Positions 24,361 to 34,513 are shown, counted from the first letter of the stretch. The stretch is 64,000 nucleotides of DNA from Dehalococcoidia bacterium (GCA_965204885.1 OZ242019.1:1331734-1395733); one strand, 5' to 3'. Notes: generated by a model from the sequence alone, not told the origin. Translations and numbers: made by a program.

Positions 24361-24391
24361 AAACAAAAAGCCCGTCCCTCAAAGGGACGGG
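24361..24391 (-). terminator. Intrinsic terminator of the T-box leader
   Basis: The minus strand reads CCCGTCCC-TTTGA-GGGACGGG followed by CTTTTTGTTT, immediately 3' of the T-box sequence. Confidence 0.8.
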
Positions 24392-24672
24392 TCCTCGTTT
24401 CGCGTGGATTCCCGCGGTGCCACCCTTATTCCCCCGCCTGCATGGCGGGAGCTCTCGTTAGGTACTTCCCTTTGGCCTTAGCCTCTGGGGGTATACCGTG
24501 GACGTGTAACGGCGTCCCAACCCGTCGGAGCCTACTGGGTTGCGGCTTCCGCCGCCCTGTTCGGTCCGCAGCTCCCGAGTCCATTCCCGTCCGGTTCGGC
24601 GTCGGGATTCCACCAATCCCCGACTCTCTGCAGCCTGACGATGGACGGTACTACTCTCGTTCGTCGCCTTTG
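24361..24672 (-). promoter_or_regulatory. T-box riboswitch leader, Trp-specific (specifier UGG), controlling trpE
   Basis: The minus strand shows Stem I elements (GAGAGUAGUA; AG bulge CAGAGAG; distal loop UUGGUGGAA). The specifier loop is GAA-UGG-A, with the UGG codon at 24581-24583. The T-box core is AAGGGUGGCACCGCGGG (24411-24427), followed by the terminator. Confidence 0.85.
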
Positions 24673-24688
24673 GTTTTCGTATTCAGTT

Positions 24689-27413: not shown

Positions 27414-28262
27414 ATGATGTCGGAAGAACGAGCCAACAGCGAAGCTCCGACCATTGACGCCGAGGATAAGGCTCACATTGCCGAAGAGCGCCTTGAGCAC
27501 GAAGCATCCGCGCTTGAAGAAGAGAAGGGCACTCTTGAGCTCGTCGAGTCCGGCCATGATGATCGCGTCTGGCAACGAGTCCTCCACGCTGCGCTCGCCG
27601 TGCCCGGTGTCAAAGTCAATCGTGAGGACTTTCTGCGAGCCACTCTGAAGTCGATTGCCGATGAAGAGCAGATTGAGAAGGCCATCGAGTCGCGACCGGC
27701 GGTGGCAGGCATCGATATCGCCGAGATTGACGGCCGGGCAAACGTCCTGATCAGGAAGCATGTTGCCCGCGCGTCCGGCATCTCATTCGCAACCGGCATT
27801 CCCGGTGGATTTGCCCTGCTGGGCACGATTCCCGCTGACCTCGCCCAGTATTTCTTTCATATGACCGTGATGGCGCAGGAGTTGGCCTATCTATACGGCT
27901 GGCCGAACCTGCTGCATGAAGATGAACTGGACGAGATTGCCCAGGCTGACATTACGATGTTCATCGGCGCGATGATGGGTGTGGGCGCGGCCAAGCAGGG
28001 CCTCCAACAACTCTCCGCCCGCGCTGTGACGCATCACGCCTCATCAATGCTGGCAAAGCGTGTTGGCCGCTACATCGGTGTCAAGATCACAAAGGACACC
28101 TTCACGCGCGGATTCGCCAAGGCTATCCCACTTCTGGGGGGATTCATCGGCGCCGGTATGACGGCGTCTACTATGCTTCCGATGGCCCGCCGACTCAAGC
28201 AAGACCTTGCCCAGCTTGACTATGCCCTGGCCGAAGCGCCGATTGAGGGACACGAGAACTAG
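27414..28262 (+). CDS. Hypothetical protein, possibly EcsC-family-like
   Basis: 282 aa. The N-terminus is acidic. The central block GISFATGIPGGFALLGTIPADLAQYFFHMTVMAQELAYLYGW resembles EcsC-type proteins. The assignment is from memory only. Confidence 0.45.
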   Translation: MMSEERANSEAPTIDAEDKAHIAEERLEHEASALEEEKGTLELVESGHDDRVWQRVLHAALAVPGVKVNREDFLRATLKSIADEEQIEKAIESRPAVAGIDIAEIDGRANVLIRKHVARASGISFATGIPGGFALLGTIPADLAQYFFHMTVMAQELAYLYGWPNLLHEDELDEIAQADITMFIGAMMGVGAAKQGLQQLSARAVTHHASSMLAKRVGRYIGVKITKDTFTRGFAKAIPLLGGFIGAGMTASTMLPMARRLKQDLAQLDYALAEAPIEGHEN

Positions 28263-28291
28263 CTGATTCAGCTGACCGGCGCGGGGTCTGG

Positions 28292-29239
28292 TTACTTCTG
28301 ACCGTCCCGCTCCTTGCGGATCGCAGAAAAATCCTCGCGACGCCACCGGTAGGGGGAGTGGACAATTGTTCCCGGTTCCGTGACAGTCTCCAGCAGGTTG
28401 AGCGCGTCTTCAACGATTGTTCTCTGTTGATCCACGTTGTCCGGCTGCCCGAACGGCTGCCCATACGGGTGTTTCACATAGAGTGACCGTGGTGGTTTGA
28501 CCCGCATGGGCTGCTGCAAACCCTGGTTCACCACCACCGTAGAAATCCCGTGCTCCTCAAGCACCCGTGCGATCAGCCCGCCGGACTGATTGCACATCGG
28601 TCAAGTTGTCCCGATCAAAGCCGCGTCAACGTCTTCCTCAAGGAGCATTCGGGCTGCTTCCGGCGCCGTCTCTTCCATCAGGCGGGGGATGTTGTCGCCG
28701 ATGATGTACCCCATGAAGCCGAAGGAATTCGCCGCGATTGACCCAATCCGTCTTTCCTCTTCCATATCCCGCAGACGTTCGATTGGAAAGATGACGTTGA
28801 TGTCCTTCTCCGCGTTGGACTTGTCATAGTGCTCATGGAAGATCGCTAGGTCGGACACCGGTGTTGTGGAGGGGATCACGCGATACGTGGGGTCGTCATC
28901 AATGTATGGTTCCTGCGCGTCTCGCACATAGGCCCCGCCCGTTGTCAGCAGCGCAATACGTGCCTCTGAGAGCGGTTTCTGAAATGCCGTCCATGGTGAA
29001 GAATCAAATGAGATGGCGTTGGGATTCACTCGCGATACCAGGTCGCGCTCCCACTCACTCAGGTATGCGTCCACCCGCGACCAATCTCCGTCGTCATGGG
29101 AGAGCAGGGCAGCCTCATACAGCCCGTTGAAAAAGCGCGTCGCCTCCTCTTCAGGGAGGCGTTCCATCCTGATCTTGGAGAACGCCATGTTCTCGATAGA
29201 CGGCGGCAGCCGCGCCAGGTCACGTAGTTCAATTGGCAT
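28292..29239 (-). CDS. GrdB-like (glycine/sarcosine/betaine/D-proline reductase selenoprotein B family) protein, copy 1; in-frame UGA at 28601-28603 read as selenocysteine
   Basis: Track ORFs 28601..29239 and 28292..28597 are in the same frame and are separated only by TGA plus one codon. Read-through gives ...DVDAALIGTT-U-PMCNQSGGLIARVLEEHGISTVVVNQ.... Family hallmarks are ALLTTGG, IPS..P..DL.I.H..YD, DINVIFPIERL and GFMG. A SECIS-like hairpin lies 10 nt after the UGA. Confidence 0.75.
28572..28590 (-). promoter_or_regulatory. SECIS-like hairpin for GrdB-like copy 1
   Basis: The mRNA reads UGA-N10-AUCAGUCC-GGC-GGGCUGAU. The stem is 8 bp including one G-U pair. Confidence 0.6.
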
Positions 29240-29410
29240 GTGAATCAGTCCCCAACCGATCGTCCTATCGTTCCAACTTGCACGTAGACATTAGAAAGTG
29301 CTGTTATGGCCGCGCGTCCGTCCGTCACCTACTGTGTTTCGGTAGCTAGCGTAGCACGCAGCATAGAAAGCTCATACTCGCCAAGAGGAGGGAGCGATGG
29401 CGACAGCCTA

Positions 29411-30262
29411 CTACTCTGAGTTCTTTCCGTTCCGCTCCTTGCGAATCGCAGAAAAATCCTCGCGACGCCACCGGTAGGGGGAGTGGACGATTGTTCCCGG
29501 TTCCGTGACAGTCTCCAGCAGGCTGAGCGCGTCTTCAACAATTGTTCTCTGTTGATCCACATTGTCCGGCTGCCCGAACGGCCGCCCATACGGGTGCTTC
29601 ACATACAACGTGCGGGGCGGTTTGACACGCGTCGGTTGCTCCAATGACTGGTTCACAACCACTGTCGCGATTCCGTTTTCTTCAAGAACGCGTGCGATCA
29701 GCCCGCCGGACTGATTGCAGACGGGTCAAGTTGTGCCAATAAGGGCGGCAGTCACGTCGTCAGCCAACAACAGCCGTGCGGCTTCCGAGGCTGTCTGCTC
29801 AATCAGACGACGAATATTCTTCCCGTGGATGCTACCCATGAACCCAACGTGGTTCTCAGCCACGGAGCCGATTATTCCCTCTGCCTCCATGTCCCGCAGA
29901 CGGTCGATCGGATAGACGACATTGATGTCTTTCTCGGCGTGAGAATTGTCATAGTGCCTATGGAATATAGCCAAATCATCTTCTGGAGTTGACGACGGGA
30001 TTGTTCGGAACGAGGGATCATTATCGACGAAGGGCTCTTGCACTGACCCAACGTAGACCCCACCGGTCGTTATAAGAGCGAGGCGCGCTTCAGCTAGTGA
30101 TCTTTCAAACGGCGTCCAGGGTGACCAATCGTAAGAAACCGGGGAATAGATCATGCGCCAAACGATGAAGTTGACCGCGGGTTTCGGCACTCTCCAGCGG
30201 ATAAAGGCTAGCCTGGAAGCAACTGCCTTTCCAAGGTGATGGGCTAGGTCTACCAGTTTCAT
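29411..30262 (-). CDS. GrdB-like selenoprotein B family protein, copy 2; in-frame UGA at 29726-29728 read as selenocysteine
   Basis: Track ORFs 29726..30262 and 29411..29662 are in the same frame. My read-through translation is ...DVTAALIGTT-U-PVCNQSGGLIARVLEENGIATVVVNQ.... The motifs match copy 1 and the hairpin is identical. Confidence 0.75.
29697..29715 (-). promoter_or_regulatory. SECIS-like hairpin for GrdB-like copy 2
   Basis: The 19-nt hairpin is identical to copy 1, again beginning 10 nt after the UGA. Confidence 0.6.
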
Positions 30263-30304
30263 AGGCGTAGGAGATTCTCTCGTGCATCTCCCTCCTGGGG
30301 ATCG

Positions 30305-30763
30305 TTAGACCGGACGCCAATACTCGTAGACCAGCGCCAGTTCCTTCAGGTACGCCTCTTCGTCGTCGCAGTCCCATCCGCGCATCTCGCGGACAAGGTC
30401 GCAGAACCGCGTGCCGGGCCGCCTTGTGTGTTGGTTCACCACGACGACGCTGAGCAGGGGGCGTTCATATGCGCCTTCAAGCTCACATACCATCGTTAGC
30501 AACTCACCCGCATTGCGAGGGTTGATGGCGGGGTCGCCCAATTGGGCGGCGAACTGCCCGTACGTCATGCGCTGCCCGCTGCGGGCGATTGGGATGAGGA
30601 TCTGACGCGCACGCTCAATCAGCGCGGCATCAATGGGTACTCCGGTGTTTTCTTCCTCTGCTTCTCTCTCGCGCTGTCGTCCAAGCGCGAGAGAGGTCAG
30701 CAACGGATCAGGCTCATAAACCATGGTTCTCTCGTGAACATCTCTAGTCGCGCCTCCGGCCAA
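30305..30763 (-). CDS. Hypothetical protein, paralogue B of an unrecognised domain family
   Basis: 152 aa from a TTG start directly after the upstream stop. An alternative ATG lies at 30722-30724. It shares the block AR..L...AR.G..[IM][ST]YG[EQ][MF]A..L ... LL.V.VV.....PG..F..L.RE with the upstream gene. Confidence 0.6.
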   Translation of the reverse strand: MAGGATRDVHERTMVYEPDPLLTSLALGRQREREAEEENTGVPIDAALIERARQILIPIARSGQRMTYGQFAAQLGDPAINPRNAGELLTMVCELEGAYERPLLSVVVVNQHTRRPGTRFCDLVREMRGWDCDDEEAYLKELALVYEYWRPV

Positions 30764-31309
30764 CTATCTTCCAAATATCCTCGCAAGGCCACGTATGAAA
30801 GCCCGGAGCGGATTGCTTTTCTCAGGCGTGGACGTGCCGGGTTCTCCGGCCGGTGTGCCATCAGATGCCGTGAACTCCTTGTCATCTGAGCTGTAATAGA
30901 GGCGCTCCAATTGCTTTATGACAACGTCGTGGAGAATATCCAATTCCTCCGCAGGGCGTCCCTGCCACTGCGCAACTACTCTCTCAGACTCCTCCAGGTA
31001 AAAAATCTTCTCGTTCTCGAATTGACGTCCCAGTTCACGGGCGAGATTAAAGAATGCGGTGCCGGGTGTTCCCTGGCGCTTCCGGACAACCAGCACCCCC
31101 AACAGGCCCCGGCCTGCCGCCTCCTCGGTGCGTGACAGCTCATTCAATGTCTCGGTGAATTCGCCGCTCTGAGGGCTGAGAACCAGTGCTGTTGCCATTT
31201 CACCGTAAGAGATCGTTCGGCCCTCTCTCGCTCGCGCGACAAGGATTTCCCATGCTCGCGCAAGTGCTCCGTGGTCACGACCACCGCCATCGTTTTGGGC
31301 ACCACTCAT
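30764..31309 (-). CDS. Hypothetical protein, paralogue A of an unrecognised domain family
   Basis: 181 aa. The ATG at 31307-31309 lies 19 nt after the Mo-subunit stop. It is homologous to 30305..30763 and carries an extra C-terminal Ser/Thr/Pro-rich segment. Confidence 0.6.
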   Translation of the reverse strand: MSGAQNDGGGRDHGALARAWEILVARAREGRTISYGEMATALVLSPQSGEFTETLNELSRTEEAAGRGLLGVLVVRKRQGTPGTAFFNLARELGRQFENEKIFYLEESERVVAQWQGRPAEELDILHDVVIKQLERLYYSSDDKEFTASDGTPAGEPGTSTPEKSNPLRAFIRGLARIFGR

Positions 31310-31328
31310 CTCGGTTCCCCGGCGATTA

Positions 31329-33566
31329 CTACTTCAGTTCCTGGTACACCTTCTCCGCTGTGATTGGCAGGCTGTCCACACGCGCGCCGATGCTGTCCGC
31401 AACCGCGTTGGCGATGGCCGGCGCAGCCATGCTGTTTGCATGCTCTCCGATGCCGCGTGCTCTAAGGGGGCCGTGACCGTCATCGGACTCCATCACGACA
31501 ACGTCAAGGCTTGGGATGTCACGAGCCGTCGGCAGCTTCATGTCCGCGAACGACGGATTCATGACACGCCCGCTCTCATCGTAGAATAACCCTTCCATCA
31601 ACGCCGAGCCAATGGACTGTACGATGCCGCCTTCAATCTGGCTTGTGAATCCCATGGGGTTCAACACGCGGCCCGTCTCATGGACTGCCGTGTATCGCAG
31701 CGGCGTCACCTCCGCCGTGTCAGGGTCGACGGATACATCCACGACGTGGACGCCGTAGCCGTTCCACGGGCTGTCAAAGCCCTCCATCTCATCCGTCCGC
31801 GCGCCAACAGGCTCGCCGAAGCGCCGGGCAATGTCCTCAATAGCAATTCGCTCATCCGAGTTCGCGCCGTTCACTATATGGCCCGCCTCGATGGTCAACC
31901 GCTCCTCATCCCAACCCATGAACTCTGACGTTAGGCGCTGAAGACGTCCCTTTACCTCCTGCATCGCGTTGAAACCCGCCGTGCTGAACATCCGCGCGCC
32001 GCGGCTCCCTGCAATGCCCATGTCTCCTGTCTTGCCCTCACGTGTCGACCATGTCACGACGTCGATCCGGTCGATTGGAATGTCAAGCTCGTCGGCGACG
32101 ATCTGCGCGATGATGGTGCCCGTTCCCGTTCCGGGATCGAAGACCGGATGATTGATCTCAACGCGGCCATTCTCCATGACCTTAACGGCCACACTGCCGG
32201 TCACGCCGATCTGTGAGTGGCTCCCAATTGCCACGCCGCGGCCCACGCCCTCCGGCTTCGGCTCGTAATAACCCGCGGCCTCCGCCGCGCGTCTGAGCGC
32301 CGCGCCGGCCTGCACGTTCTGCCACTCTTCGCCCGTTGGATACTCCTCGCCGGGCTCAACCACGTTGTGCAACCGGAAATCCATCGGGTCCATACCAATG
32401 GCCCGCGCCAGCACGTCCATGTGCGATTCCCCGGCAAAGTGGCCCTGAACGTGCCCGGGCGCCCGCGCGTATGTGCACGGGGACGTATTGGTGTACACCT
32501 GGTGCGAGTCCACCTTGACGTTCGCAATGCGGTACGGCCCGACGATTTCCAGGATGCCCATGATGGCGGGTATGGGAGCGTAAGCCGCATAGCCGCCGCC
32601 CGCGAAGTGAATCTCTGACTCCCATGCTGTGATCGTGCCGTCGTTCTTGACACCCGCCTTTACCCGCATCGTTGCCGGGTGGCGCATCGTCATGTTCTGG
32701 AATTCTTCGTCGTATTCAATCGTCCACTTGATCGGCCTGCCGGTCCGCTTCGTGAACTCGTACGCGAGCGCAACATCCGTGCCGGACGACTTGCCGCCGA
32801 ACGAGCCGCCAACATAGTTGAAATTGAAGTTGATTGCGTCATCATCAAGGCCGTACAGCCGCTGCATCTCTTCCAGCGCACCGGTCGGAGTATCGTTCGC
32901 ATTCCATATCTGCAGCACGCCCTCATCGTCGACGTAGACAAGGCAGGCGTGCGGCTCCAGGTAGCCTTGGTGGAGCAGAGGAGTGCGGTATGTTCGCTCG
33001 ATCACGTGATCCGCGTCGGAGAACCCGGCGTCCATGTCGCCCTTGGCAAAGTGCACGCCCGCATAGCGGTTCGGGTGCTCGTCCCGCGGGGGCATTCCCT
33101 CGTATGAACCGGCGTCCGGATGCAGGATTGGCGCATCCGCCGTCATGGCATCCTCCGGCGCGAAAATGGCCGGAAGCTCCTCGTAGTCGATGTCAATCAG
33201 CCCGATGGCCTGTTGCGCGATGTCCTCATCGTCCGCGACGACGGCTGCAACCTTGTCGCCGACCAGCATGACCCGATCCCATGCCAGCAGCGGCATGTCC
33301 TTGATCACTGTGCCCGTCAAGGTGCCCTTGACATCCTCGCCGGTAAGAACGAGCTGCACACCCGGGAGGGCGCTGGCGGCCGACGTGTCTACGGATACGA
33401 TGCGCGCATGGGGAAACGGGCTGCGCAGGATCTTCATCCACAACATGCCGGGCATCTGCGCGTCAAGCCCGTATACGGCAGACCCCGTCACCTTTTCCGG
33501 CCCGTCCACCCGTGGAACTGATGTCCCGACCAGTTTTGAACCACCACTCCCTGCGGTTGATGTCAC
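31329..33566 (-). CDS. Xanthine dehydrogenase / aldehyde oxidase family molybdopterin-binding (large) subunit
   Basis: VGTSVPRVDGPEKVTGSAVYGLD, VGGSFGGK and the large a/b-hammerhead plus MoCo domains are present. The track ORF starts at TTG 33596. I prefer the GTG at 33564-33566, which follows a GGGGGG run. The start is uncertain. Confidence 0.88.
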   Translation of the reverse strand: MTSTAGSGGSKLVGTSVPRVDGPEKVTGSAVYGLDAQMPGMLWMKILRSPFPHARIVSVDTSAASALPGVQLVLTGEDVKGTLTGTVIKDMPLLAWDRVMLVGDKVAAVVADDEDIAQQAIGLIDIDYEELPAIFAPEDAMTADAPILHPDAGSYEGMPPRDEHPNRYAGVHFAKGDMDAGFSDADHVIERTYRTPLLHQGYLEPHACLVYVDDEGVLQIWNANDTPTGALEEMQRLYGLDDDAINFNFNYVGGSFGGKSSGTDVALAYEFTKRTGRPIKWTIEYDEEFQNMTMRHPATMRVKAGVKNDGTITAWESEIHFAGGGYAAYAPIPAIMGILEIVGPYRIANVKVDSHQVYTNTSPCTYARAPGHVQGHFAGESHMDVLARAIGMDPMDFRLHNVVEPGEEYPTGEEWQNVQAGAALRRAAEAAGYYEPKPEGVGRGVAIGSHSQIGVTGSVAVKVMENGRVEINHPVFDPGTGTGTIIAQIVADELDIPIDRIDVVTWSTREGKTGDMGIAGSRGARMFSTAGFNAMQEVKGRLQRLTSEFMGWDEERLTIEAGHIVNGANSDERIAIEDIARRFGEPVGARTDEMEGFDSPWNGYGVHVVDVSVDPDTAEVTPLRYTAVHETGRVLNPMGFTSQIEGGIVQSIGSALMEGLFYDESGRVMNPSFADMKLPTARDIPSLDVVVMESDDGHGPLRARGIGEHANSMAAPAIANAVADSIGARVDSLPITAEKVYQELK

Positions 33567-33718
33567 TGTAAGACCCCCCGAATAAACCTCTTGCAACTGT
33601 GTTCTGCATTGTAACGCAGGGATGCCGTTTCTGCGCCCGTAGCATCGCTCGTTTGAGCACTGTTACACTCTAGAAAGTTCGCAGTATCTGACAAATCCAG
33701 GGCAGGGGGAAAACGCTA

Positions 33719-34513
33719 ATGCCGACCGTCCACACCAACGGAATTGACACAGCTTACACAGACCAGGGGCAGGGTGACGGCCCTCCGGTCCTTCTCATCC
33801 ACGGCTTTCCCTACAACAAGTCCATGTGGGATGACCAGGTTGCGGCGCTCTCCGGCAGTCATCGTGTCATCACCTACGATCTCCGCGGCCACGGTGAGTC
33901 CGGTTCGACCGAAGGGCCGTACACCATGGAAATGCTGGCGGATGACCTCCACGCTCTGGTTGAAGAGCTGTCTCTCGGCGAGGTTGCCCTTGGCGGTTTC
34001 TCCATGGGCGGCTATGTTGCGTTGGCCTTTGCCGCCGCATATCCGGAGCACCTCTCCAGCCTGATGCTGCTTGATACGCGCCACCTCCCGGACTCCGAAC
34101 AGGCGGCGGAGGGGCGTGAGAATCTCGCCAAGCAGGTTGAGGCAGACGGCGTCGGCGGTCTTGCGGAAGCGCTGCCCGCGCGAATGTTGACTGAGGCCAC
34201 TGTCAACGGCAAGCCGGATGTGGTCGCAAAGGCATCGGACATGATTCGAGCGGCGTCGCCAGAGGGTGTCGCGGGAGCCGCGCGCGGCATGGCGGTGCGA
34301 CCTGACCAGACTGATACGTTGGGCAGCATCCACGTGCCCACGCTGATTGTCGTTGGCGATCAGGATGGCATCACTCCGCCTGCGGATGCCCAGACGATGG
34401 CGGACGCGATCTATAACTCAACACTGGTCACAATCGCTGATGCCAGCCATCTCTCCAACCTGGACAAGCCGGACGAGTTTAACAGGGCATTGATTGACTT
34501 CCTCAGCGCCTGA
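33719..34513 (+). CDS. Alpha/beta hydrolase (3-oxoadipate enol-lactonase-like)
   Basis: 264 aa. The HGFP oxyanion region, nucleophile elbow GFSMGG and C-terminal His (DASHLSN) are present. Confidence 0.85.
   Translation: MPTVHTNGIDTAYTDQGQGDGPPVLLIHGFPYNKSMWDDQVAALSGSHRVITYDLRGHGESGSTEGPYTMEMLADDLHALVEELSLGEVALGGFSMGGYVALAFAAAYPEHLSSLMLLDTRHLPDSEQAAEGRENLAKQVEADGVGGLAEALPARMLTEATVNGKPDVVAKASDMIRAASPEGVAGAARGMAVRPDQTDTLGSIHVPTLIVVGDQDGITPPADAQTMADAIYNSTLVTIADASHLSNLDKPDEFNRALIDFLSA

What the first reader, a model, noticed from the sequence alone, without database searches (positions are those of the whole stretch)
28292..33596. Compact co-directional five-gene unit: orphan Mo-hydroxylase large subunit, two unknown paralogues and two GrdB-like selenoproteins, with none of the canonical reductase partners
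All five genes are on the minus strand. The gaps are 19, 0, 42 and 171 nt. The unit is bounded by a divergent gene (33719, plus strand) and a convergent gene (ending 28262, plus strand), so it looks like one transcription unit. Classical selenoprotein-B systems need GrdA, a pyruvoyl proprotein (GrdE/PrdA), GrdC/D and thioredoxin. None of these is present in the window. Classical xanthine-dehydrogenase-family enzymes need a 2Fe-2S small subunit and usually an FAD subunit. Those are also absent here. As far as I know, this combination of a molybdopterin hydroxylase-type subunit with Sec-dependent GrdB-like reductase subunits and a duplicated unknown domain is not a described pathway. A speculative role is hydroxylation followed by reductive C-N or C-X cleavage of a small N-containing substrate.
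Basis: inference. Interest (0 to 1): 0.78.

Follow-up and report, generated by a model that had tools for sequence, protein, structure and literature searches.

The report
Neighbouring selenoprotein and molybdoenzyme genes, probably unlinked
The five genes are real, including two genuine selenocysteine proteins, but comparison with related genomes suggests they are neighbours in one bacterial lineage rather than parts of a new shared pathway.

Summary
The anatomy is confirmed. Five minus-strand genes lie at 28292-33596:
- one xanthine-dehydrogenase-family Mo-binding large subunit (XDH_L);
- two paralogous small proteins of unknown function;
- two PrdB-like selenoproteins, each with an in-frame TGA, a UxxC motif and a conserved hairpin 11 nt after the TGA.

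No CoxS, CoxM, GrdA, PrdA or thioredoxin gene was found in the window.

The proposed new pathway is not supported. The PrdB-like genes belong to a very large stand-alone selenoprotein family: more than 596 confirmed loci, and TGA in all 80 examined. Marine selenoproteome surveys already list it as "PrdB". In 69 loci outside this Dehalococcoidia clade, no XDH-family gene lies within 8 kb. XDH_L orthologues at 63-73% identity lack a PrdB-like neighbour. Syntenic relatives carry one gene without the other (L021, L114). Five further XDH_L paralogues examined in two related genomes also have no Fe-S or FAD subunit gene nearby, so "orphan" is normal in this lineage.

The two unknown proteins resemble the MGMT/ATL DNA-binding domain, though the match is weak. 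Their copy number varies from 0 to 3.

Best reading: a lineage-specific, possibly co-transcribed juxtaposition of independent genes. Real functional coupling remains possible at about 10%. Interest is modest.

The parts
31329..33596 (-). XDH_L: molybdopterin-binding large subunit of the xanthine dehydrogenase / CO dehydrogenase family. It is 755 aa from the first TTG; homologue gene calls are 747 aa.
   Evidence: Pfam Ald_Xan_dh_C, MoCoBD_1 and MoCoBD_2. The best NCBIfam matches are all far below their cut-offs, e.g. 4-hydroxybenzoyl-CoA reductase alpha at 423 bits against a cut-off of 995. The closest solved structures are 7dqx_A and 1rm6_A. The GGSFGGK and GIGE (catalytic Glu) motifs align with them.
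33667..33694 (-). Sigma-70-like promoter match upstream of XDH_L.
   Evidence: This is the only minus-strand promoter-like site in 27900-34000. The total number of sites found does not exceed the shuffled expectation, so the evidence is weak.
30764..31309 (-). unkA: 181-aa paralogue of the small MGMT/ATL-like winged-helix-type family.
   Evidence: 35% identical to unkB, E = 9e-14. No Pfam, NCBIfam or PHROGs match. Present in most but not all relatives.
30305..30763 (-). unkB: small MGMT/ATL-like protein, probably starting at the ATG at 30724 (139 aa).
   Evidence: Homologues are called at 139 aa. A profile search found 1042 relatives at E <= 1e-3. The AF2 model has pLDDT 83.5. The top Foldseek matches are almost all O6-alkylguanine-DNA alkyltransferase or ATL domains, but they are weak (E 0.1-0.6, TM 0.3-0.4). 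Two relatives give sub-threshold PF01035 matches.
29411..30262 (-). PrdB-like selenoprotein 1 (283 aa including Sec). This is a lineage-specific duplicate with a different N-terminus.
   Evidence: TIGR04483 PrdB 160.8 bits (cut-off 300), covering profile positions 10-236 of 238. Found only in the window and in L001-L003.
29726..29728 (-). Sec codon (TGA) of PrdB-like 1, in the UPVC motif.
29697..29715 (-). SECIS-like hairpin of PrdB-like 1: an 8-bp stem and a 3-nt GGC loop, starting 11 nt after the TGA.
   Evidence: Fold. Across 36 diverse family members the helix is 97.6% paired, with compensatory changes at 2 of 8 pairs.
28292..29239 (-). PrdB-like selenoprotein 2 (315 aa including Sec). This is the conserved copy, with an N-terminal extension of about 80 aa that is also present in SAR202/Dehalococcoidia homologues.
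   Evidence: TIGR04483 162.6 bits (cut-off 300); Pfam GRDB matches the C-terminal part only. Orthologues are present in L001-L024 and L041-L055.
28601..28603 (-). Sec codon (TGA) of PrdB-like 2, in the UPMC motif.
28572..28590 (-). SECIS-like hairpin of PrdB-like 2.

Best explanation
The five genes are a lineage-specific juxtaposition of three independent elements. They may be co-transcribed, but they do not form one pathway.

(1) XDH_L is one of several scattered, solitary paralogues of the xanthine-dehydrogenase / CoxL-like Mo-hydroxylase large subunit in these small sponge- and marine-associated Dehalococcoidia genomes. I infer that it hydroxylates an unknown N-heterocycle or aldehyde at the Mo centre. 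I also infer that it hands electrons to 2Fe-2S and FAD subunits encoded elsewhere, probably shared among the paralogues.

(2) The two PrdB-like genes are members of a very large family of stand-alone selenoproteins. That they are selenoproteins is shown here. Their chemistry is inferred from the UxxC motif shared with PrdB and GrdB: Sec acts as the nucleophile, the Cys three residues downstream resolves the adduct into a selenenylsulfide, and a cellular thiol system re-reduces it. The substrate is unknown. There is no pyruvoyl partner of the PrdA or GrdE type, so the reaction is not canonical D-proline or glycine reduction.

(3) The two small paralogues are MGMT/ATL-like winged-helix-type proteins without the alkyl-acceptor motif. 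They are most likely nucleic-acid-binding or regulatory accessories, and their copy number varies.
For: Selenoprotein status:
- TGA is conserved at the same position in all loci L001-L024 and in all 80 best loci of the wider scan.
- The reading frame stays conserved after the TGA.
- The hairpin 11 nt downstream is 97.6% paired with compensatory changes.

Family size and independence:
- No neighbour is shared across the family. Neighbours differ by lineage: GST, MAPEG and Tpx in Binatia-type loci, DUF1800 in SAR202-type loci, ComA and PrpD-like genes in L023.
- No XDH-family gene lies within 8 kb in 69 loci outside the clade.

Separability of XDH_L and PrdB-like:
- XDH_L orthologues at 63-73% identity lack PrdB-like and unk genes.
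- L021 has the gene order of L022 without XDH_L. L114 has GatA-RarA-XDH_L without PrdB-like.

Solitary state is generic: besides the PrdB-adjacent orthologue, three further XDH_L paralogues on one 1.96-Mb chromosome and one in another genome have no Fer2_2 or FAD_binding_5 neighbour. PMC8941161 reports many CoxL/COG1529 paralogues of unknown substrate in sponge Chloroflexi, whose MAGs also carry coxSMLG.

unk genes: copy number is 0-3 among relatives. The fold and sub-threshold Pfam matches point to the MGMT DNA-binding domain.

Prior knowledge: marine 'PrdB' with a UxxC motif is listed among the most abundant marine selenoprotein families (PMC1088965, PMC2398784).
Against: - The XDH_L-unk-PrdB-like order is tight (gaps of 19-42 nt, 171 nt before the last gene) and co-directional, with no internal terminator-like sites.
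- The order is kept in about 20 species-level genomes, and XDH_L-PrdB-like adjacency is kept in L022 at only about 60% protein identity. Some functional or regulatory link in this clade is therefore not excluded.
- I could not show that CoxS and CoxM genes exist elsewhere in these genomes.
- The MGMT-like assignment rests on weak structural matches (E 0.1-0.6).
- The promoter and terminator scans use E. coli-type consensus sequences and may not apply to Chloroflexota.
Confidence: 0.7

Rival explanations
1. A real clade-specific operon. XDH_L hydroxylates a small N-containing substrate and the PrdB-like selenoproteins then cleave it reductively. Alternatively, the selenoprotein serves as the direct redox partner of the large subunit, replacing the Fe-S and FAD subunits.
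For: The arrangement is compact and co-directional. There is one promoter-like site upstream and no internal terminator-like sites. The arrangement is conserved in about 20 genomes and the adjacency is retained in L022 at 60% identity. No canonical partner of either enzyme is in the window.
Against: There is no association in 69 other loci of the selenoprotein family. XDH_L orthologues at 63-73% identity lack PrdB-like. Syntenic loci exist with only one of the two genes. All other XDH_L paralogues examined are equally 'orphan', so absence of partners says nothing specific about this locus. No XDH-family enzyme is known to work without Fe-S centres (general knowledge).
Confidence: 0.1
2. unk plus PrdB-like form a small module that was inserted or is variable. 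The MGMT/ATL-like winged-helix proteins regulate or otherwise serve the selenoprotein genes immediately downstream, and XDH_L is merely the upstream neighbour.
For: In the clade, unk copies always sit directly upstream of PrdB-like. L114 shows XDH_L without unk or PrdB-like nearby. unkA and PrdB-like 1 have lower GC3 than their neighbours. The fold is of a DNA-binding type.
Against: L021-L024 and all other lineages have PrdB-like without unk. unk relatives elsewhere are fused to unrelated domains such as NOV_C and NrtR_WHD. DNA binding has not been shown.
Confidence: 0.15
3. The in-frame TGA codons are ordinary stops. On this reading the 'selenoproteins' are truncated proteins or pseudogenes, which is how the databases annotate them (212-aa hypothetical proteins).
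For: All database gene calls end at the TGA. No SelA, SelB, SelD or tRNA-Sec gene is in the window.
Against: The TGA is conserved at the identical position in more than 90 loci from several phyla, and about 100 in-frame codons after it are strongly conserved. A covarying hairpin sits at the distance expected of a bacterial SECIS. A Cys-containing homologue has Cys at the same site (L028). The UxxC motif matches PrdB and GrdB (PMC9312934).
Confidence: 0.03

Closest known systems
D-proline reductase subunit PrdB (TIGR04483) and the PrdB-homologous C-terminal part of GrdB/GrdF/GrdH (PF07355)
   Same: Homology over the full length of PrdB (profile positions 10-236 of 238). Sec lies in a UxxC motif at the equivalent place. 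A SECIS-like hairpin sits just downstream of the UGA (PMC9312934).
   Different: The score of 161-163 bits is far below the equivalog cut-off of 300. No PrdA or GrdE pyruvoyl proprotein, PrdC, GrdA or GrdC/D gene is nearby, either here or in 73 family loci. The Chloroflexota members have an extra N-terminal extension of about 80 aa. The hosts include aerobic marine and sponge-associated lineages.
Marine 'PrdB' selenoproteins of the Sargasso Sea and GOS selenoproteome surveys (PMC1088965, PMC2398784)
   Same: Same Pfam family (PF07355), same UxxC motif and same marine habitat. In the surveys most members contain Sec and few have Cys, as in my scan (80 of 80 with TGA).
   Different: Those papers carry over the proline reductase annotation and do not examine gene context. 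I did not compare the sequences directly with the GOS reads.
Xanthine dehydrogenase / CoxL form II-type Mo-hydroxylase large subunits (e.g. 6-hydroxypseudooxynicotine dehydrogenase 7dqx_A, 4-hydroxybenzoyl-CoA reductase HcrA 1rm6_A)
   Same: The same three-domain architecture, the same Moco-binding motifs and the catalytic Glu.
   Different: It is below every NCBIfam equivalog cut-off, so the substrate is unknown. No adjacent small or medium subunit genes are present, as for the other paralogues examined in this lineage.
O6-alkylguanine-DNA alkyltransferase DNA-binding domain and ATL proteins (PF01035)
   Same: The predicted helix-turn-helix plus wing topology. Almost all top Foldseek matches are of this kind. 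Relatives give sub-threshold PF01035 matches.
   Different: No PCHR-type acceptor-Cys motif. No Pfam match for the window proteins themselves. The structural scores are weak (TM 0.3-0.4).

Membership tests
D-proline reductase PrdB (TIGR04483 equivalog) | HMM score at or above the curated cut-off (300 bits) | tested here: not met
   162.6 and 160.8 bits.
D-proline reductase PrdB (TIGR04483 equivalog) | Sec (or Cys) in a UxxC redox motif | tested here: met
   GTT-U-P-M/V-C in both genes. The motif is as listed for PrdB and GrdB in PMC9312934.
D-proline reductase PrdB (TIGR04483 equivalog) | Encoded with the PrdA pyruvoyl proprotein and other prd genes | tested here: not met
   None in the 64-kb window, judged by eye and by motif. 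No recurrent PrdA-like neighbour in 73 family loci. The rest of the genome was not searched.
Glycine/sarcosine/betaine reductase protein B (GrdB/F/H) | Full-length match of about 430 aa including the N-terminal half, with a score above the cut-off | tested here: not met
   Only the C-terminal third of PF07355 (positions 212-347) and of TIGR01917/01918 is matched. Scores are 46-59 bits, below the cut-offs (65 bits for the subfamily model, 602-800 bits for the equivalog and exception models).
Bacterial selenoprotein (Sec decoding) | In-frame UGA conserved among homologues, coding conservation downstream, a Cys at the same site in some homologues, and a stem-loop shortly after the UGA | tested here: met
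Bacterial selenoprotein (Sec decoding) | The genome encodes SelA, SelB, SelD and tRNA-Sec | not testable with these tools
   None in the window.
Xanthine oxidase family Mo-hydroxylase, large subunit | Ald_Xan_dh_C, MoCoBD_1 and MoCoBD_2 domains, with the Moco-binding motifs and the catalytic Glu | tested here: met
   GGSFGGK is present, and GIGE aligns with GLGE of 7dqx_A.
Xanthine oxidase family Mo-hydroxylase, holoenzyme | Partner 2x[2Fe-2S] small subunit and FAD medium subunit | tested here: inconclusive
   Absent from the window and from the flanks of five further paralogues in related genomes. The rest of the genome could not be searched. PMC8941161 reports coxS and coxM in sponge Chloroflexi MAGs.
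Aerobic CO dehydrogenase CoxL form I | NCBIfam CO_dehy_Mo_lg score above the cut-off | tested here: not met
   270 bits against a cut-off of 991.
MGMT / ATL (PF01035) | Pfam match above the gathering score and a PCHR-type active-site motif | tested here: not met
   No Pfam match for unkA or unkB. Relatives reach only 18 bits against a cut-off of 27. The sequences read LLSVVVV and LLGVLVV where PCHRV would be. Only weak fold resemblance.

The most novel reading that the evidence does not exclude
In this sponge- and marine-associated Dehalococcoidia clade, the Mo-hydroxylase large subunit and the stand-alone PrdB-like selenoprotein(s) are co-transcribed and work together. Either hydroxylation is followed by Sec-dependent reductive C-N or C-X cleavage of one substrate, or the UxxC selenoprotein acts as the redox partner of a large subunit that has no Fe-S or FAD subunits. 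The second case would be a Mo-hydroxylase wiring not seen before.
Probability: 0.1. Interest if true: 0.75.

Novelty: new member of a known kind. Interest (0 to 1): 0.3.

Why it matters
As a 'new pathway' the finding does not hold up, and that conclusion saves effort.

One thing of value remains. The PrdB-like genes belong to one of the most widespread bacterial selenoprotein families whose function is still unknown. Automatic annotation truncates them at the Sec codon: every close homologue in the protein database is a 212-aa 'hypothetical protein'. Earlier surveys labelled the family 'proline reductase', yet it never sits next to a PrdA-type partner in the 73 loci examined.

Knowing that the family is stand-alone, almost always uses Sec, and lies beside thiol- and peroxide-related genes (GST, MAPEG, Tpx) in some lineages gives a concrete starting point for biochemical work.

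The lineage-wide habit of solitary XDH-family large-subunit paralogues also raises a tractable question. Do many large subunits share one Fe-S/FAD module?

Tried and rejected
- A single-sequence AF2 model of unkB was poor (pLDDT 57) and was discarded. The alignment-based model was used instead.
- The first alignment-based genome scan was largely wasted. I had written Cys at the Sec position, so the pattern chosen found only one Cys-form homologue (L028). I repeated it with X at that position.
- PHROGs and NCBIfam gave nothing for the unk proteins or for the 282-aa convergent gene.
- A sequence search of PDB found no solved relative of the PrdB-like proteins, so no fold comparison was attempted for them.
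- A look-up of P0271, the XDH_L paralogue on the 1.85-Mb contig that also carries the window's own unkB protein, found no record.
- A regex search of all 113 loci fetched by then found no CoxS-type gene to use as a lineage-specific query. I therefore could not test whether these genomes encode small subunits elsewhere.
- A link to selenium-dependent molybdenum hydroxylases (Haft and Self 2008, cited in PMC9312934) was considered and set aside. From my reading of the ORFs, its marker genes yqeB, yqeC and selD are not near the cluster, but no HMM was run for them.
- A literature search for 'PrdB-like' together with 'selenoprotein' returned nothing.

Full report
**Observation.**

The ORF map and translations confirm five minus-strand genes between 28292 and 33596.

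- Gene 1 (31329-33596) has the three Pfam domains of a xanthine-oxidase-family molybdopterin-binding large subunit. It stays far below every NCBIfam equivalog cut-off. Its closest solved relatives are the large subunits of 6-hydroxypseudooxynicotine dehydrogenase and 4-hydroxybenzoyl-CoA reductase. The Moco motif GGSFGGK and the catalytic Glu (GIGE) are conserved.
- Genes 2 and 3 (30764-31309 and 30305-30763) have no Pfam, NCBIfam or PHROGs match. They are paralogues: 35% identity, E = 9e-14. Homologues of gene 3 are called at 139 aa, so its start is probably the ATG at 30724.
- Genes 4 and 5 (29411-30262 and 28292-29239) each contain one in-frame TGA, at 29726-29728 and 28601-28603, within GTT-U-P-x-C-NQSGG. 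They match PrdB (TIGR04483) along its whole length at about 160 bits, where the cut-off is 300. They match only the C-terminal third of GrdB models.
- The flanks are a divergent alpha/beta hydrolase gene and a convergent 282-aa gene with no family match.
- The rest of the window is core chromosome: ribosomal proteins, EF-G, a trp operon behind a T-box, Mfd, and FabF/FabG/PlsX. I found no CoxS-type motif, GrdA motif, thioredoxin partner, Sec machinery or tRNA-Sec.

**Are the TGA codons Sec codons? Yes.**

- The TGA is at the identical position in every relative fetched: L001-L024, two Rokubacteria loci, and all 80 best loci of a broader scan covering Dehalococcoidia/SAR202, Binatia, Poribacteria, Methylomirabilota, Acidobacteriota and others.
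- About 100 codons after the TGA remain conserved in frame.
- A Bryobacteraceae homologue has Cys at the site.
- An 8-bp hairpin begins 11 nt after the TGA. In 36 diverse sequences it is 97.6% paired against 6-44% for slid registers. Two pairs show compensatory changes: U-A to C-G, and G-C to A-U. The first of these couples a synonymous change to an Ile-to-Val replacement.
- Gene callers stop at the TGA, so every close homologue in the protein database is a 212-aa 'hypothetical protein'.

**What the selenoprotein family is.**

Clustering all ORFs within 6 kb in 73 loci found no neighbour shared across the family, and no PrdA/GrdE-like, GrdA or XDH-family gene. Neighbours differ by lineage:

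- In Binatia-type loci: a GST upstream on the same strand (14 loci), a MAPEG protein (10 loci) and a Tpx/Redoxin (22 loci) downstream, plus SDR and luciferase-like genes.
- In SAR202-type loci: DUF1800.
- In L023: ComA and PrpD-like genes.

The Sargasso Sea and GOS selenoproteome surveys already list 'proline reductase PrdB' (PF07355, UxxC) among the most abundant marine selenoprotein families (PMC1088965, PMC2398784). The family is therefore known as a selenoprotein. Its function without a pyruvoyl partner is not known.

**Is XDH_L functionally tied to it? The evidence says no, or at most within this clade.**

- The first scan found the XDH_L-unk-PrdB-like order in about 20 species-level genomes. 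These are close relatives in which the flanking genes (PlsX, MaoC, hydrolase, DUF362, amidohydrolase) are syntenic as well.
- L022, at about 60% protein identity, keeps XDH_L directly followed by PrdB-like, without unk genes.
- Outside that group, none of 69 loci has any XDH-family gene within 8 kb.
- From the other direction, XDH_L orthologues at 63-73% identity have no PrdB-like or unk gene nearby. L109 has two tandem XDH_L copies plus an FAA hydrolase next to the trp genes. L114 has GatA-RarA-XDH_L. L115 and the P0236 contig have other neighbours.
- L021 has RarA, PrdB-like, CysK and DUF362 in the same order as L022, but without XDH_L. L114 has the RarA-XDH_L side without PrdB-like. Each gene therefore persists without the other at the syntenic site.

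**Is the 'orphan' state special? No.**

On the complete 1.96-Mb chromosome that carries L022, the PrdB-adjacent orthologue and three further XDH_L paralogues are all solitary. So is a paralogue in another genome. None has a Fer2_2 or FAD_binding_5 neighbour.

PMC8941161 reports that sponge-symbiont Chloroflexi carry many CoxL/COG1529 paralogues of unknown substrate, and that Chloroflexi MAGs contain coxS, coxM, coxL and coxG. The simplest inference is that small and medium subunits are encoded elsewhere and shared. I could not test this, because no CoxS-like gene was present in any fetched locus to seed a targeted search.

**The two unknown paralogues.**

- Close homologues occur only in this clade.
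- A profile search of 1.8 billion representatives found 1042 relatives at E <= 1e-3. Most are stand-alone proteins of 110-130 aa. Some are fused to NOV_C or NrtR-type winged-helix domains, and two give sub-threshold PF01035 matches.
- The alignment-based AF2 model is confident (pLDDT 83.5). Its Foldseek matches are almost all O6-alkylguanine-DNA alkyltransferase or ATL domains. The scores are weak, however: E 0.1-0.6 and TM 0.3-0.4.
- The acceptor-Cys motif is absent.
- Among relatives there are 0-3 copies.

I read them as small nucleic-acid-binding or regulatory proteins rather than as enzyme subunits. My confidence in this is low to moderate.

**Transcription.**

One sigma-70-like site lies upstream of XDH_L (33667-33694). 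No terminator-like site lies on the minus strand inside the unit. Co-transcription is therefore possible. The scan is weak evidence: the counts do not exceed those of shuffled sequence, and the consensus sequences are E. coli-type.

**Verdict.**

The proposed novel pathway is not supported.

The best explanation (confidence about 0.7) is a lineage-specific neighbourhood of three independent elements:

- a solitary Mo-hydroxylase large-subunit paralogue;
- accessory MGMT-like small proteins in variable copy number;
- one or two copies of a widespread stand-alone PrdB-like selenoprotein.

Real coupling within this clade remains possible (about 0.1). It would be interesting if shown. The most useful by-product is a sharper description of an abundant, mis-annotated selenoprotein family of unknown function.

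Noticed in passing
window 24380-24673 (-): T-box leader (Rfam RF00230, 111 bits, above the gathering score) immediately upstream of trpE. The trp operon here appears to be under tRNA-sensing control.
   Followed up: no
window 28292-28480 versus 29411-29600 (-): From 120 to 300 nt after the TGA (the 3' ends), the two PrdB-like genes are 94% identical at the DNA level, against 65% upstream of the TGA. This indicates 3' homogenisation or gene conversion. The same pattern, weaker, is seen in L001-L003.
   Followed up: partly
L002 and L003 9035-10843 versus window / L001: The order of the two PrdB-like copies is swapped. In L002 and L003 the long form comes first. In the window and L001 the short form comes first. 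This implies rearrangement or independent insertion of the duplicate.
   Followed up: no
P0001-P0041 (database homologues): Every close homologue of the PrdB-like proteins in the 5.8-billion-protein collection is called as a fragment of about 212 aa ending at the Sec codon. Where named, most are 'hypothetical protein'. The mis-annotation is systematic.
   Followed up: yes
L063-L108 (Binatia / 'delta proteobacterium' loci): In these lineages the PrdB-like selenoprotein gene is flanked on the same strand by a glutathione S-transferase (14 loci), a MAPEG protein (10 loci) and a Tpx/Redoxin thiol peroxidase (22 loci). This hints at a thiol or electrophile-detoxification context.
   Followed up: partly
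L028 7833-8675 (Bryobacteraceae): This was the only homologue found with Cys in place of Sec in the exact motif. Judged by eye only, it sits next to a radical-SAM gene and two glycosyltransferase-like genes that resemble the arsenosugar ('rSAM/selenodomain-associated') set.
   Followed up: no
L109 5730-11203: A marine relative has two tandem XDH_L copies (69% and 68% identical to the window protein) followed by an FAA-hydrolase-family gene, beside the trpD-MFS-trpG-trpE block. XDH_L therefore sits near the trp genes in this relative as well.
   Followed up: partly
window 29411-30262 and 30764-31309: PrdB-like 1 and unkA have lower GC3 (0.62 and 0.59) than the surrounding genes (0.70-0.80). This is compatible with recent duplication under relaxed selection, or with foreign origin.
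   Followed up: no
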